Position numbers: made by a program
Virus genome (UHGV): UHGV-0178165
Strand: one strand, 5' to 3'
DNA length: 18,159 nucleotides
Origin: a virus
Shown: positions 9,001-15,000 of the stretch, piece by piece
Position numbering within the stretch: the stretch's first letter is position 1
How the letters are laid out: each line of letters begins with the position of its first letter

Positions 9001-12000
9001 TTTTACCCACTGCAAAGAAAACAGGATATGCAGTGGCCTGAATATATCGACCCGCGCCTGCGTAATTACCGCTCACGCCATGGCGCTATCAGTAATGACT
9101 GAGGAATTTACCATGAGAGGACTTGCATACAATCCCGGCATTCTTCCGGCAGAAATGATTATTCGCCAACGCGTAAAGCCAATGCCATCGAGAGAGGAAT
9201 TGCTTAAAAGAAATAGTTTCGGTTCTGTTAATGACAACAAATATCTGAATGCGATGTTGCGGAGTGGGAAAAAATGAAACAAATGACACTAATTGAGATG
9301 GATGGTTTTCTGAAAGGTAAATGCATCCCACGAGATTTAAAGGTTAACGAAACAAACGCTGAATATCTGGTGCGTAAATTTGCTGAAGCGGAGGCCAAGA
9401 TTTCAGCTCTACCCGAAGACCACCAGAAAGCGATTGAGTCAATTAAGCAGGCTGATGCGGCTGTTAAGTTGGCACACGAGAAGTTTTCGGCGCTGGCGGC
9501 GGAGAATGCTGGGCTGAAATCTGATACTCCACTTGGTGCCATCGAGAATGGCAGAGCGTTTGCAGACCGTTTAGAGAATTACCAGTTCGAGTGTGAAGGC
9601 GGAAACCTAAACATGTGCAGTGATTGGCAGGAGTTTCGCCGTTGCTTCGAGTACTTATCTGAATGGGCAATGCATAGCCAGACAGAGCACCCAGCCACCG
9701 ATGCTTTCCTGGCTGAAGTACGGGCGCAGGCGCTTAATGACCTTTGCTCGGCGTTCGTTAAGGGCGCGACGGCTGCCGGGCTGGACGATGGCTATACCGT
9801 AACGCTTAAGGAAGTGACAGAAGCATTGTTGCATTATGCGGAACAGATTCGCGCGCCTGAATAATTAAATTTAGTGTTGTAAATAAAATCTAATCCTTAA
9901 CCGGAGGTATATCTATGTTAAATACACAGAAAACCATTAATGCGGAAAAATATAACGAGTGGGTGAGGAAATTTTCTGAGCAGATTTTTAAAATTACTGG
10001 CGACGAGAATGCGGCAAAAAATGAATTAGAGCCGTGGACACCTGAAGGAGCCGACCCAAATTATTGCTGGTGGGATGTTGATCCAGTTGATGCTGCAAAT
10101 GAAGCTATGAGTTATCACAACGATTAATGTCAGGAGGCCGCCCGAAAGGGCGGTAATAAATAATGCAAGAAACCAAAGAAAATATCAGAAAACAGCTTTA
10201 CGGGTTTTATATTGCTTATGATTTGTGGTTGAGTAATGGGGCGAAACCAGGTGGGGTGTTTTCTCGAAATTATGGTTTATGCGCCAATCTTTTCGATTAT
10301 CTCACATCAATCGGTACCTCCAGCGAAGCGGCACTGGAACAATTACACGCTGATTTCAGAAGTGCCGGGCTGTATGAGGTGTTGCCATTTAACGAGAGTA
10401 ATGGGCATTACCATGAAGAAAAAAGGAACAACATGTGCCATATGAACCCGTCGCGGGTGGCGTGGGTCAGGGCGCAGATGGTACAGGCAGTGCCGGACGG
10501 ACTGGATTGATGAAAAGGTGGCGTAATGCCACCCAAATAGCGGACACTTATACCTATGCCAATATCACAGACCTATTCCACAACATCATCTTCTATCAAT
10601 TCAGCCTTATTTAGTTGTTCCTTAAGCTTATTCCATGCAGAATCCTCAGGCATCTGTACTCGCACAGAAACGAATTGATTAGCAGGAATGTCGATCGGGT
10701 CACCGTTCGAAACACCAGGTATGTCGTTACGTGCAAAAACGGGCGAGTTATCATGAGTGCGGTGAAACGTTTTCACCAACACAGATCCATCTTGGTTAAC
10801 AACATAATCCAGCCAGATGAGCGGCTGCTTGTTTCGGTCCTGCGGTATTTCAAATCCACCATCAATCCCACCCCATGAAGCATCTGCATTCAGACCTACG
10901 CAACCCTCAATCAGATATTCACCCAATGCCAGCCGTGTGACGGTTACCCCATCTGATTCGCGATTTGTTTCACTACTACCGTCTGAGAAAATCTTCACAA
11001 CCGGAGAGGCTTTTTTGATGAAACCACTTGAATCGACGGTCGTGTTCAGCGACGACCATGCCTCAGCCCAGCCTGCGTTACCTGCGCGAATAGCATCGCC
11101 TGCGTAGCGGAAGAACAGTTTTGATGTTGTGGACATGAATATCTGCAACACACGGTTTTTTGCATATCCTGACTCCCATAATGCTCCGTTACCTGTTCCT
11201 TCTGGCTGCCAGTTTGTCTTCCCACCTGCTTCTCCTATACTTACACCAGTAGACCAGTCTCCAGCAAATTCTGGAAGATTTGGTGAGTTAGGTGAGCGAA
11301 TTGATACATCAACCAGACCAGGGGATCCGAGAATCGACATGCTGCGGGAGGACACCTTAGTAAAAGAGTTGTACCCGCCGTTTTTGGAAATCCTTCCTGT
11401 ATAATTATTAGCCCTGTTGGTTCCATTAACTGTAATTTCCCAGGTATCGCCGTTGATGAAGTCGATCTGCAATATGCAGTATGCTGGCAGTGTCATCTGT
11501 CCTGGCGCAGATGGCCCACCTTCAAACAGTGGCATATCCTGTTCAAGATATGTCACATATCTACCTGCATCTGTATTCCGCAAATAGTCACAAATAGCTT
11601 GTGCCGATGTAAATAGCGCAATACCATCAGCCGGGTTTACAGGGTGACGGCCAGCGTTAATCACCCTTCCGCGAGGGTTAAATAACTGTGATGCGGCATT
11701 GGATAGCGGACTCATGTCTACTGTTCCAGGTTCATTAGATGGACAGTTAGCGCGAATGATGTTTAAAGTCCTATAATTTGATCCGCCCCCATTGCCATAG
11801 CGAATAGACTGTAGAAGATACAATTCCTCAGAGCCAGAAATATCACAAGACTGCACCCCCTCATTTTCAGTGGAGTAAACACTCTTCCCTGAATAACTAT
11901 CCCAGTATGTTTTGAAATCTGCAGGTGACAGCAGGTACTGACCTAATTCTGAACCAGAATGGCTGTACTCAATATAACCCTGCAACCCTGCGAAAGTATT

Positions 12001-15000
12001 TCCAGATCCCGCCGTGGTAGATGCACCAATACCAGCAAATATCCGTTGAGAACCAAGAGCGACACCCTGCCGTTTTGGTTTACCGGCTCCGCGACCTCCA
12101 ACATTTGCATCAACCGTAATAGTCCCCATTGGACTATAAGATCCTTCTATAAGGCTGTTAATATCCAGTGTGTTAAAGATATTGGATACACCTGTCTCAA
12201 CATCAAAAATTTTCGGCCAACCCATGTCCGCGTTTTCGTATAGCAGGGTATTACCAAAACCACTGAACTGATATCGCACTCCAAGTTTGGGTGATTCCGT
12301 GAAGTTTGTGATCTGCGTTTTATCAGCTAGCGTGCGCGGGTCTCCGATAGGGTAAATTCTGATAGTGCGGGATGGGCTGTACGGCAGTAGAATATAGCGC
12401 TGCCCTGCTTTTCTGTAAACGTGGATGCCTTCTGGTGCACCAACGTTATTCGGAAAATGAAGACGTGTTACCAATGCTCCTGTTGCCCAGTCATGCACCG
12501 TAACCCATACCGATGCGGGGTTTAGCGTCTGCCAGCCGATGTATACCATTCCATCATTGCTGTCTATGTAAATCCCCTGAAATCCCATGGTCGTATAACC
12601 ATACTGACCTTTAAGATCTGCGGTAATCTCATTGTCTATGATGCTGAATTCTAATTTCCAGTTCAGCGGCCTACGCGTACCACTGACATGTCTGGAAATA
12701 TGAGACAGGTAGCTTTTAACCCCGCCTGCGATAATGTATCTATCTTTGATCTCAGTAACAATTCCAGTTGCAACTGGAGTGCATTTATAGACGCCGCCGT
12801 TTATTCTAATAAAATTGGTTCCTGTTAGATTATCCCCAATGGCAACGTCTTTGCTACTATTCTTAAACGTCCCATTACCTAAGTCAGTAACAAGCAATGC
12901 CCCTTCTACATATTTCAATGACTGATCAGGGTCATACTTCAGCACATTAGGAAAATAGAACTGCTTAGCACCATATGCATCATAAACAGCCATAGAATGG
13001 CCTTGCACAGTTACGAACTTGGCTATTTGCCCGTTATATACCGGGTAACCAGCAGCGTTAATGATGATTGGTTGCGAAACAGGAACGTGAGAACCGTCTT
13101 CATTCTCAACATAAACCTGAATCCGGTTTTCAGGATTTACCGGGTCAGTGTCAATTTTACCGATATAAATTCTGCCATTGGCATTTGCTTTAAACGAGCG
13201 AGCTAAAGTAAATAAGTTACTTGGTTGTGAAACGACAACGTTGTATGATTGATTTGGCATAATAAACATTCCGGAGAAAATAATGAGTAAGAGACGTCAC
13301 GAGGTAGTAACTCGGGAGCGCCTTATGGAGGTTCTAGATTACAATAAAGAAACAGGAATTTTCACCTGGAAAAAGAAATTAAGCGCCAGAGGCTTGTTGG
13401 CTGTTACTCCAAGATTCTCTGCAACCTCCCTTGCTGAGTAGTAATGCTCTTCTATTGCCGGAAGAGGTATTCTAGCTAATGCGCCCTTCCTTCTTAAGAC
13501 TGGCAATTACTCTCTGATAAATCTCAGAGTTAACAGATCGACCATTCTCTTCCGCCACCTTGCGTACCAAATCCAACACTTCTTTAGGCCACCGCAAATT
13601 GAACTGCGGCATCTTGCTCATTCCTTTCATATTCACCTCACAGCACGGCCCACAGTGGACCTATTGAGAATATAGTAGAGTGATTCTATCATGCCAGCGC
13701 ACTAACTTGGAGTGATGGCATGGCAGAGATTGTTCACACACAAACACCTAAAAAGTCTAATTTGCTCTAATTTTGTGTATTAATGGTTGCATAAACAAAT
13801 AAATTAGGAATATAATTTAAGTGAGGTAATTAATTGGAGAAAAAGATATGAAAGTGCAGACTTTAGAGTTCCCATACGGTGAAGTCGAGTTCACCAGAGA
13901 TGAGTATATCGATGCGTCAACACTAACCGTTCAAATGAACCGATGGAGATTTGATAACGGTCTTCAACCAAGAAATCTTGCTCAGATACTGAAAACGGAT
14001 GACTGCAAAGACTTCATGCGTGTTTGTGAAGAGGAGACTGGTATTATTCCGTTAAAAACAACGAGAGGAAGGAATGGGAAAACGTGGCTAAGTCTCCATC
14101 TGGCGGTGTATGTCGCCGAGCAGTACAGCACTTATTTCCACTTTCTCGTCATTGATCGTTTTATCACCCAGAGACAGGTCGAGTTGCGAAACATTGGTGC
14201 GGCAAGTTTTGTGGAGCTTAACGCAGCAGTTAGTCGGATGCTTGAGCGTACAGAAGGTAGGATTGGTCATAGTGGTCATTTCATTCAGGTTGCAAAGGTG
14301 GTTAAGGAATCGATAGATATCCGTGAAGTTACCGGGTTTGATACCTGGGATTCTCAGGATGCAAAAACCAACCAGTTGCGCAGCGAGATACAGAAGTCTC
14401 TTGTTCAGGCTCTTGATATGGAGTTTGTCAACTCGTGGGATGAGCTGAAAGAGACGATACCGCGAGTTGTGCGTAAATGCGCTGAGAAGATTGCAAGAGC
14501 TTAAAAAATGATGAGGGTTACCAATATGAAAAAGGCACTGTTAATTATCCCGTTTCTGCTGGTTGGATGTGCAAAAGTAAGTGACTATCAGGCAAATTGC
14601 GAACAACGCTATCAAAAGCTTAGCGATATGGCCACTTGCCTTGATGCCAGCGTGAAGAGCGACTCACGCATGGCGTCAGCACCAACACCTAAACTGTATG
14701 TCCTTGCTGCGAAGATGCTCGGGCAAGGTGTCGATGAAGGCAAGATAAGTAACGCGCAGGCAAGACTTGAGCTTCAGAATCTTTATGTTCAATTGCAAGC
14801 CCAAGAACAAGCCCAGCAAATAGCGCAAAGCCAGGCATTTCAGCAGGCTTTATTGAATTATCAGGCTTTAAACACAATGCAAGCGATCGAGCAAAAAGCC
14901 AGACAGCCTGTTATAACTCAACCTTACCCAACGCGTGTTGACACCTATACAAACTGCAATTCAGGGTTTGGAAATACAGTCACATGCAACAGTAGCAGTA

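What the first reader, a model, noticed from the sequence alone, without database searches (positions are those of the whole stretch)
10573..13269. Mosaic tailspike: conserved P22-type head-binding domain joined to a large unrelated receptor-binding body
Only the first ~115 residues resemble P22 gp9; the remaining ~780 aa are different and longer than the P22 tailspike body. This pattern indicates receptor-domain swapping, likely specifying a different O-antigen or capsule and possibly a different enzymatic activity.
Basis: partly seen in the sequence, partly recalled or inferred. Interest (0 to 1): 0.45.

Follow-up and report, generated by a model that had tools for sequence, protein, structure and literature searches.

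The report
Propeller-bodied mosaic P22-type tailspike
This is a phage tailspike gene built from swapped parts: a standard P22-type attachment domain is joined to a rare five-bladed propeller receptor-binding body related to the host-recognition proteins of Staphylococcus phages, instead of the usual beta-helix enzyme.

Summary
The ORF lies on the minus strand (10573..13269; the real start is probably the ATG at 13260, giving 895 aa). Only residues 4-116 are P22-like (Pfam Head_binding, E 2e-62).

The rest is four parts, not one body:
- a neck (117-202);
- a five-bladed beta-propeller (about 203-520);
- a tower-like beta region (521-735);
- a widespread beta-sandwich cap (Phage_tail_C_2, 742-875).

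No beta-helix, sialidase, esterase or S74 chaperone domain was detected. The closest folds to the propeller are staphylococcal phage RBPs (phi11 Gp45, P68, 80alpha). A profile comparison shows real homology to a Staphylococcus phage baseplate RBP (hhalign 99.9%, E 5e-34).

Module swapping is strongly supported: the same body sits behind P22-, epsilon15/T7- and TSP1/Gp66-type adaptors.

The idea that it specifies one particular O-antigen is not supported. Four lysogens with nearly identical bodies carry four different O-antigen clusters (O16, O25, O88, one unnamed).

Whether the propeller only binds a glycan or also cleaves it is unresolved. I rate this a new variant of a known kind, of moderate interest.

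The parts
10573..13260 (-). Tailspike CDS (895 aa plus stop). The mechanical ORF extends to an upstream ATG at 13269 (898 aa). Residue numbers in this report use the 898-aa numbering.
   Evidence: ORF list and translation. Exact 895-aa protein on record as DAP79630.1 'tail protein [Caudoviricetes sp.]'. pN/pS 0.25-0.32 against nine close variants.
12922..13260 (-). P22-type head-binding (virion adaptor) domain, residues 4-116. The recombination junction lies at codons ~116-118 (about 12916-12924).
   Evidence: Pfam PF09008 E 2.4e-62. PDB hits Sf6 gp14 7sg7 E 4e-58 and P22 1lkt/2vnl/2xc1 E 1e-42 to 1e-45, all ending at residue ~117. Megablast hits in phages end at nt 347-354.
12664..12921 (-). 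Neck/linker beta region, residues 117-202. It travels with the body in close relatives but is absent from distant ones.
   Evidence: Alignments A1 and A2. AF2 strands with pLDDT ~66-80. In XJ55 this stretch is homologous but more diverged than the rest of the body; near-identity by megablast starts at nt 532, residue ~178.
11710..12663 (-). Five-bladed beta-propeller, residues ~203-520, the presumed glycan-recognition platform. Inner-strand motifs: QG231-232, EG280-281, YQ333-334, KRQG399-402, ENEG468-471. The N-terminal strand (203-211) closes blade 5.
11065..11709 (-). Tower-like, mostly beta region, residues 521-735. Its first ~100 residues are part of the unit homologous to the staphylococcal RBP.
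   Evidence: hhalign alignment extends to residue ~623. Foldseek alignments with phi11, P68 and 80alpha span 554-598 columns. AF2 confidence falls from 70-80 to below 65 here, so the fold is only provisional. Present in the distant relatives P0007, P0009 and P0010, which end here.
10645..11046 (-). Phage_tail_C_2 C-terminal beta-sandwich domain, residues 742-875. A separately mobile distal cap.
10576..10644 (-). Acidic C-terminal helix, residues 876-898.
   Evidence: AF2 helix at model residues 150-166. Sequence [23 protein letters not shown].
10516..10534 (-). GC-rich hairpin GGGUGGC-AUUAC-GCCACCU followed by UUUUCAUC, 39 nt after the stop codon. A probable intrinsic terminator that belongs to the shared cassette.
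   Evidence: Sequence and RNA fold. The block shared with plasmid record pB1.H1.18.c6 runs 10487-13218, which includes this hairpin. The consensus terminator scan did not list it.

Best explanation
The gene encodes the single receptor-binding tailspike of a P22-like (Lederbergvirus-type) temperate phage. It is assembled from interchangeable modules.

Residues 4-116 are the conserved head-binding dome that plugs the (presumably trimeric) spike onto the tail hub. After a short neck comes a five-bladed beta-propeller plus a tower-like region. These are homologous to the platform of baseplate receptor-binding proteins of Staphylococcus phages (the phi11 Gp45 class). A Phage_tail_C_2 beta-sandwich caps the distal end.

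I infer that three propellers per spike form a platform. Their central polar pockets, lined by the conserved Gln/Glu/Lys/Arg inner-strand residues, would recognise a sugar unit of a surface polysaccharide.

Nearly identical bodies occur in lysogens of at least four O-antigen types. The receptor is therefore more likely a glycan feature shared across serogroups, or a non-O-antigen glycan, than one serogroup-specific O-unit.

Shown here: module boundaries, fold, homology, modular exchange, purifying selection. Inferred: trimeric state, the pocket as binding site, glycan nature of the receptor. Unresolved: whether the pocket also cleaves the glycan.
For: Domain map.

Homology chain:
- The window body hits P0014 by phmmer at E 2e-7.
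- The P0014 propeller hits 29 Staphylococcus/Mammaliicoccus phage records (HHU-22 E 2e-18).
- The HHU-22 protein lies in the baseplate module and shares its stem with phi11 Gp45, 80alpha gp61 and NF5 Gp17 (E 1.6e-6 to 3.7e-5).
- The body profile against HHU-22 gives hhalign 99.9%, E 5.2e-34 over 383 columns, while shuffled controls give E >= 0.2.

phi11 Gp45 is a trimer with a platform of three propellers and a modelled GlcNAc pocket lined by Gln residues (PMC4901313).

Modularity.

Host O-types. Propeller-type RBPs in Klebsiella prophages likewise associate poorly with capsule type and go with broader host range (PMC12491483).

Selection: pN/pS ~0.3, with amino-acid changes confined to the head, neck, propeller and tower, and none in the C-terminal domain.
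Against: The AF2 model of the body is only moderate (mean pLDDT 64.6, pTM 0.49, 15-sequence alignment), and it is poor beyond residue ~620.

Direct profile comparison with phi11 Gp45 itself is not significant (hhalign probability 0.07%, E 0.69). The link to the solved structures is therefore by fold plus one sequence intermediate.

No binding or activity data exist for any member of the family.

The O-type of a lysogen is only a proxy for the receptor. Only 4 of the 14 carrier genomes could be typed (three attempts missed the rfb locus). O-antigen switching after lysogeny cannot be excluded.

From established knowledge, all characterised P22-family tailspikes are enzymes, which argues against a purely adhesive spike.
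Confidence: 0.7

Rival explanations
1. The propeller is a glycan-degrading enzyme (a depolymerase, i.e. a glycosidase or lyase of a new family). Like other P22-family spikes, it would cleave the polysaccharide it binds so that the virion can reach the outer membrane. This overlaps with the best explanation on everything except catalysis.
Against: No Pfam, NCBIfam or PDB sequence match to any glycosidase or lyase family. In the papers read here, the nearest structural relatives (phi11 Gp45, P68, 80alpha, NF5) are described as RBPs, with no enzymatic activity reported. The conserved residues could instead be structural (central channel or metal site), as in glutaminyl cyclase-type propellers. 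The arrangement of conserved residues could not be superposed on the GH43/GH32 catalytic triads with these tools.
Confidence: 0.35
2. One reading: a serogroup-specific O-antigen tailspike that retargets the phage to one particular E. coli O-antigen.
For: This is the rule for P22-like and epsilon15-like prophages (PMC10408124, citing Casjens and Grose 2016). TO6 carries an intact O16 cluster. All four typed hosts make dTDP-6-deoxyhexose (rfbBAC), so a shared sugar epitope is conceivable.
Against: There are four different O-antigen clusters among four typed hosts, for bodies that are ~97% identical at nucleotide level. The known O16-dependent Lederbergviruses (Bas106 and relatives) share only the head-binding domain with this protein (PMC11990801). 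In the window and in E. coli TO6 no O-antigen-modification gene (gtr/oac) follows the spike.
Confidence: 0.12
3. A decaying or non-functional prophage gene, a chimeric relic without a current role.
For: The window lacks an integrase next to the spike. Some hosts have disrupted O-antigen genes.
Against: The ORF is intact at 895 aa in a 182-member cluster that includes complete ~40-kb phage genomes and viral contigs. pN/pS is ~0.3. The terminator and the genomic position are conserved.
Confidence: 0.03

Closest known systems
P22-family (Lederbergvirus) tailspikes: P22 gp9, Sf6 gp14, HK620 gp9, CUS-3 endosialidase spike
   Same: The N-terminal head-binding domain (residues 4-116), with the junction at the YDPDQ hinge. 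The genomic slot after the ejection-protein genes and the arc-type immI region. The principle that the body is exchangeable; CUS-3 already shows that a non-beta-helix (six-bladed sialidase) body can be used.
   Different: The body has no sequence or fold similarity to the beta-helix endoglycosidase bodies or to the GH58 endosialidase. It is a five-bladed propeller plus tower plus Phage_tail_C_2 cap, about 230 aa longer than P22 gp9. No catalytic family could be assigned.
Baseplate receptor-binding proteins of Gram-positive phages: phi11 Gp45 (5efv), 80alpha gp61 (6v8i), P68 tail fibre (6iab), NF5 Gp17 (9m7x), and the uncharacterised Staphylococcus phage HHU-22 670-aa protein
   Same: A five-bladed propeller platform followed by a beta-rich distal region. 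These are the best fold matches. There is profile-level homology to the HHU-22 protein (99.9%), with the same inner-strand motifs. The blade-5 closure by the N-terminal strand is as described for phi11.
   Different: The coiled-coil, iron-binding stem is replaced by the P22 head-binding domain and neck. The hosts are Gram-negative, so wall teichoic acid cannot be the ligand. Direct sequence similarity to phi11 Gp45 itself is not significant. An extra Phage_tail_C_2 domain sits at the end.
Uncharacterised propeller spikes of lytic coliphages (for example the vB_Eco_ZCEC02 gp17-position protein annotated 'endo-N-acetylneuraminidase') and the 'n-bladed beta-propeller' RBP class described in Klebsiella prophages
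   Same: The same propeller family (hhalign 99.8%, E 1.6e-27 for ZCEC02). Modular N-terminal adaptors. Weak association with a single surface-glycan type.
   Different: About 23% identity. Those proteins use T7-gp17 plus Tail_spike_N adaptors and end in a Peptidase_S74 chaperone instead of Phage_tail_C_2.
Five-bladed propeller enzymes (GH43/GH32/GH62 glycosidases, bacterial glutaminyl cyclase) and YjiK
   Different: No sequence-family membership. Catalytic residues could not be matched. Those proteins are not part of a trimeric virion fibre.

Membership tests
P22-type tailspike (Lederbergvirus) | N-terminal head-binding domain (Pfam PF09008) | tested here: met
   E 2.4e-62, residues 4-116. PDB hits to the P22 and Sf6 N-terminal domains.
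P22-type tailspike (Lederbergvirus) | Genomic position: after the ejection-protein genes and the immI (arc) region, at the end of the late region | tested here: met
   SLT-domain ejection protein at 15101-17494 (-) and an Arc-like ORF at 13472-13630 (-) lie upstream. The same order is seen in TO6 and in pB1.H1.18.c6.
P22-type tailspike (Lederbergvirus) | Right-handed parallel beta-helix endoglycosidase body | tested here: not met
   No sequence match beyond residue 117. The AF2 model is a propeller, and no beta-helix appears among the top fold hits.
phi11 Gp45-class phage RBP | Five-bladed beta-propeller platform | tested here: met
phi11 Gp45-class phage RBP | Detectable sequence homology | tested here: inconclusive
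   Direct comparison with phi11 Gp45 is not significant (hhalign 0.07%). Comparison with Staphylococcus phage HHU-22 RBP is significant (99.9%, E 5e-34). The HHU-22 stem is homologous to Gp45, gp61 and Gp17.
phi11 Gp45-class phage RBP | N-terminal triple coiled-coil stem docking to a siphophage baseplate | tested here: not met
   The N-terminus is the P22 head-binding domain.
phi11 Gp45-class phage RBP | Trimer; sugar (GlcNAc) bound in the propeller pocket | not testable with these tools
   Only monomer prediction is available, and there are no ligand data.
Five-bladed glycoside hydrolases (GH43/32/62/68/117) | Family sequence signature and catalytic Asp/Glu triad | tested here: not met
Endosialidase tailspike (CUS-3/K1F, GH58) | Six-bladed sialidase propeller and C-terminal Peptidase_S74 chaperone | tested here: not met
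   No PDB or Pfam match to the endosialidase or to S74 in this protein. S74 occurs only in distant relatives.
Phage_tail_C_2 (PF25670) C-terminal domain | Pfam model match at the C-terminus of a tail fibre or spike | tested here: met

The most novel reading that the evidence does not exclude
The spike is a serogroup-independent adhesin. Its propeller pocket is inherited from the same lineage as the GlcNAc/teichoic-acid-binding RBPs of Staphylococcus phages. It would recognise a sugar common to many E. coli surface glycans, for example the GlcNAc of O-units, ECA or PGA, without needing to cleave it. This would give a P22-like phage an unusually broad adsorption range. It would also show that one RBP module lineage is exchanged among podo-, sipho- and myophage adaptors and is shared across the Gram-positive/Gram-negative divide.
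Probability: 0.2. Interest if true: 0.7.

Novelty: new variant of a known kind. Interest (0 to 1): 0.5.

Why it matters
Mosaic tailspikes are textbook. However, characterised P22-family spikes are beta-helix enzymes or, in CUS-3, an endosialidase.

Here the body belongs to an unnamed propeller family with no Pfam or NCBIfam model, whose PHROG is of unknown function. The family is demonstrably homologous to baseplate RBPs of Staphylococcus phages. It rides on at least three different virion adaptors in enterobacterial phages.

Its occurrence in lysogens of several O serogroups makes it a candidate for a receptor-binding module that is not tied to one O-antigen. That is of practical interest for host-range prediction and for engineering phages or tailocins. 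It also flags that several coliphage spikes annotated 'endo-N-acetylneuraminidase' probably belong to this family instead.

Tried and rejected
1. NCBIfam and PADLOC scans of the spike gave no hits.

2. A PDB search with the profile of the whole alignment A2 gave hits only to the N- and C-terminal modules contributed by other sequences (Tail_spike_N, S74). Nothing significant matched the body.

3. I tested whether the C-terminal domain is an S74-type intramolecular chaperone. There was no Pfam or PDB sequence support, and the fold is a beta-sandwich. Rejected.

4. Direct hhalign of the body against phi11 Gp45 was not significant. It was replaced by the HHU-22 bridge.

5. tblastn of the window's own body against 50,697 phage records gave no match. 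Only distant family members reach sequenced phages.

6. The 'glycerophosphoryl diester phosphodiesterase' annotation of the vB_SscM-1 homolog was followed up as possible evidence for a separate enzymatic domain. Pfam finds no such domain, so it is uninformative.

7. O-antigen loci of SCU-109, HCM-26C-1 and KE40 were not found at the offsets I guessed, because the genomes are arranged differently. These hosts remain untyped.

8. Literature searches for the protein accession, and for receptor data on the coliphages that carry the family, found nothing.

9. The consensus terminator scan did not list the hairpin after the stop codon. It was identified by eye and by folding, and its z-score in a 73-nt context is unremarkable.
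Full report
**1. The observation**

The window contains one long ORF at 10573..13269. It lies on the minus strand (898 codons), and the plus-strand translation of the same interval is full of stops.

The likely start is the second ATG at 13260 (MPNQ...):
- Pfam's Head_binding model begins at residue 4.
- The close homolog P0001 starts MPEQ.
- The exact 895-aa sequence is on record as DAP79630.1 'MAG TPA: tail protein [Caudoviricetes sp.]' on contigs up to 40,955 bp, whereas the 898-aa version is not on record.

Only the N-terminus is P22-like:
- Head_binding PF09008 covers residues 4-116, E 2.4e-62.
- PDB sequence matches to Sf6 gp14 and several P22 tailspike entries all stop at residue ~117.
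- Megablast against 50,697 phage records matches only nt 1-354 of the gene (Kapi1, HK620, Sf6, CUS-3, IME10, the BASEL Lederbergviruses, epsilon34), and nothing matches further in.

The refuting condition, a full-length alignment with P22 gp9, is not met.

**2. Anatomy of the non-P22 part**

It is not one block.

*C-terminal cap.* Pfam finds Phage_tail_C_2 (PF25670) at residues 742-875, E 1.9e-59. This domain is about 65-70% identical, read from the printed alignment, to the C-terminus of the kuravirus SU10 long-tail-fibre proximal protein gp12 (7z47_D). Only residues 1-90 of that protein were built, so no experimental structure of the domain exists (PMC9509320).
- tblastn finds it in 327 phage records of many tail types: kuraviruses, HK446/HK542, T5-like lateral fibres, Proteus and Providencia phages, and Acinetobacter phage tail spikes/fibres. 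It also occurs in 296 protein clusters.
- With a 50-sequence alignment AF2 gives a beta-sandwich plus a terminal helix (pLDDT 75, pTM 0.70).
- It is not an S74-type chaperone.

*Middle region.* Residues 118-740 have no Pfam, NCBIfam or PDB sequence match. PHROGs has a full-length family, phrog_20129, of unknown function. Close relatives are rare:
- 7 clusters among 5.8 billion proteins;
- 12 representatives at E <= 1e-3 among 1.84 billion;
- one locus (Kluyvera intermedia) among 185,579 species genomes, found with two conserved-peptide patterns;
- 6 IMG/VR contigs;
- 11 of 5,426 complete E. coli genomes with the full gene, plus 3 with the body only;
- no tblastn hit in the phage collection.

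**3. Fold of the body**

AF2 on residues 118-898 with 15 sequences gave a moderate model (mean pLDDT 64.6). It has a confident all-beta core at protein residues ~203-517 (pLDDT 70-94 apart from short loops).

- In Foldseek the six best PDB hits are all staphylococcal phage RBPs (phi11 Gp45, P68 tail fibre, 80alpha gp61; E 2e-13 to 3e-12, 554-598 columns). The next hits are at E 1e-6 or weaker.

Independently of the model, the sequence shows a five-fold pseudo-repeat of an inner-strand (Q/E)-G motif: QG231-232, EG280-281, YQ333-334, KRQG399-402, ENEG468-471. These residues, with W255, D260, R291, Y306 and D518, stay conserved in relatives of only 21-29% identity.

The N-terminal strand 203-211 appears to complete the last blade, as described for phi11 Gp45 (PMC4901313). 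There is no beta-helix.

**4. Is the similarity to staphylococcal RBPs homology?**

A direct hhalign of the body profile against the phi11 Gp45 sequence is not significant (probability 0.07%, E 0.69). Its best local match does put our blade-1 'GFQGIYID' on phi11 'VMQSFWVD', which contains the cavity residues Met164/Gln165, but that is only suggestive.

A bridge exists, however:
- The propeller region of the distant family member P0014 (phmmer E 2e-7 to the window body) hits 46 phage records by tblastn. Of these, 29 are Staphylococcus/Mammaliicoccus phages, the best being HHU-22 at E 2e-18.
- The HHU-22 protein (670 aa) lies in the baseplate module between the Tal endopeptidase/SGNH hydrolase genes and BppU.
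- Its stem and first blade are homologous to phi11 Gp45, 80alpha gp61 and NF5 Gp17 (E 1.6e-6 to 3.7e-5; BLASTP E 6e-11 over residues 3-182).
- The body profile aligns to HHU-22 with hhalign probability 99.9%, E 5.2e-34, over 383 columns (protein residues 206-623). The motifs line up. Ten shuffled controls gave E >= 0.2.

The same profile matches the gp17-position spike of the T7-like coliphage vB_Eco_ZCEC02 at 99.8% (E 1.6e-27, 481 columns; shuffled controls E >= 0.047). That protein has the architecture T7-fibre N-terminus, Tail_spike_N, propeller, Peptidase_S74.

So the body belongs to a broad, unnamed propeller-RBP family present in phages of both Gram-positive and Gram-negative hosts. Only its close relatives are rare.

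**5. Modularity**

The same body is joined to different virion adaptors:
- the P22 head-binding domain (the window; TO6 at argW/intS; the 39.9-kb circular record pB1.H1.18.c6);
- an epsilon15/T7-fibre-type N-terminus in E. coli XJ55 and two other genomes, with 93% aa identity over residues 121-895 and ~97% nucleotide identity from nt 532 onward;
- Tail_spike_N (TSP1/Gp66-type) adaptors at 62-69% identity, in Kluyvera directly after a 1,025-aa GpJ-like tip protein.

More distant relatives carry a Phage_tail_fib N-terminus or an S74 C-terminus, or lack any C-terminal cap.

At DNA level, the block shared between the window and pB1.H1.18.c6 runs from codon ~17 to 86 nt past the stop, which includes the terminator-like hairpin (10487-13218, 96.9%).

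Against nine close variants pN/pS is 0.25-0.32. Amino-acid differences fall in the head (5-8), neck (2), propeller (13-14 of 318) and tower (8-9 of 215). There are none in the C-terminal domain (0 of 155-163).

**6. Receptor**

- TO6 = O16;
- WP7-S17-ESBL-01 = O25 family;
- MS14384 = an unnamed rfbBDAC/glf cluster with IS remnants and a split polymerase;
- XJ55 = O88.

Three further hosts could not be typed.

Four different clusters for bodies that are ~97% identical argue against a serogroup-specific O-antigen receptor. [quoted passage not shown]

Three further points agree with this:
- The known O16-dependent Lederbergviruses share only the head-binding domain with this protein (PMC11990801).
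- No gtr or oac conversion gene follows the spike in the window or in TO6.
- In Klebsiella prophages, propeller-type RBP domains likewise associate poorly with capsule type and go with broader host ranges (PMC12491483).

**7. Mechanism**

The best-supported mechanism has three steps:
- A (presumably) trimeric spike docks by its head-binding dome.
- It presents a platform of three propellers.
- Their central polar pockets recognise a sugar of a surface glycan, by analogy with the modelled GlcNAc pocket of phi11 Gp45.

The tower and the Phage_tail_C_2 cap probably stabilise the distal trimer or add contacts.

Whether the pocket is catalytic is open.
- For catalysis: the fold is that of GH43/GH32-type enzymes; charged inner-strand residues are conserved even in the Staphylococcus homolog; and all characterised P22-family spikes are enzymes (established knowledge).
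- Against catalysis: there is no family signature, and the papers read here report no enzymatic activity for the closest relatives.

I put about 0.35 on catalysis.

**8. Verdict**

The finding is real. The module-swap reading is right. The 'different O-antigen' reading is probably wrong in its simple form. The enzymatic question is open.

It is a new variant of a known kind: a P22-type spike carrying a phi11/HHU-22-class propeller body. Interest is moderate (0.5).

Noticed in passing
window 9200-10573: No integrase or excisionase lies between the tailspike stop and the convergent early-left genes (115-aa ORF 10163..10510 +, phrog_6418; 70-aa ORF 9915..10127; DUF2737 8954..9277). The same spike is followed by intS plus tRNA-Arg in E. 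coli TO6, and by int plus xis in pB1.H1.18.c6. Similarity to the latter stops 86 nt after the stop codon.
   Followed up: partly
L020 (NZ_CP146561.1, whole record); also NZ_CP146567.1: Two 39.9-kb circular 'plasmid' records of hospital-wastewater E. coli are complete P22-like phage genomes carrying this spike. In NZ_CP146561.1, the one examined, the cI-position LexA-family repressor is annotated as frameshifted. That might explain why it was assembled as a free replicon.
   Followed up: no
window 13290-15011: The immI-like region upstream of the spike holds an Arc-like ORF on the spike's strand (13472..13630 -) and a ~52-aa antisense ORF (about 13290-13450 +). It also holds two + strand ORFs: 13848..14504 (218 aa, phrog_6095 'amidase', weak KilA-N) and 14508..15011 (167 aa, phrog_6067 unknown). 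Neither of these two has a PADLOC hit.
   Followed up: partly
L022:2736-5588 (Escherichia phage vB_Eco_ZCEC02) and hits H117-H120, H123: Several coliphage and Salmonella-phage spikes annotated 'endo-N-acetylneuraminidase' hit this propeller family. In ZCEC02, the one scanned, there is a Peptidase_S74 chaperone at the C-terminus and Pfam finds no sialidase domain. The name is probably a carry-over from the chaperone.
   Followed up: partly
L023:1669-4488 (Staphylococcus phage vB_SscM-1 gp113): The 940-aa baseplate-region protein homologous to the propeller family is named 'glycerophosphoryl diester phosphodiesterase' in RefSeq, but Pfam finds no such domain.
   Followed up: yes
L012:12900-21800 (E. 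coli MS14384 rfb region): The O-antigen cluster of this blood isolate contains IS630/ISAs1 remnants, and its EpsG-family polymerase is split into two ORFs. The strain may make little or no polymerised O-antigen.
   Followed up: no
window 1-9400 and 15101-18073: The early and replication region is most similar (about 96.5%) to Stx-converting phages (O/P replication, stk kinase, cI), while the late end is Sf6/IME10/Sf101-like. This is a typical lambdoid mosaic. The ejection protein at 15101..17494 (-) is a 797-aa SLT-domain protein.
   Followed up: no
window 11065-12663 compared with L001-L008 and L020: The window's allele differs from all nine compared variants by nearly the same number of substitutions: about 14 in the propeller and 8 in the tower. 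It may therefore be a distinct sub-variant; I did not check whether the positions coincide. The C-terminal domain is identical at protein level in all of them.
   Followed up: partly
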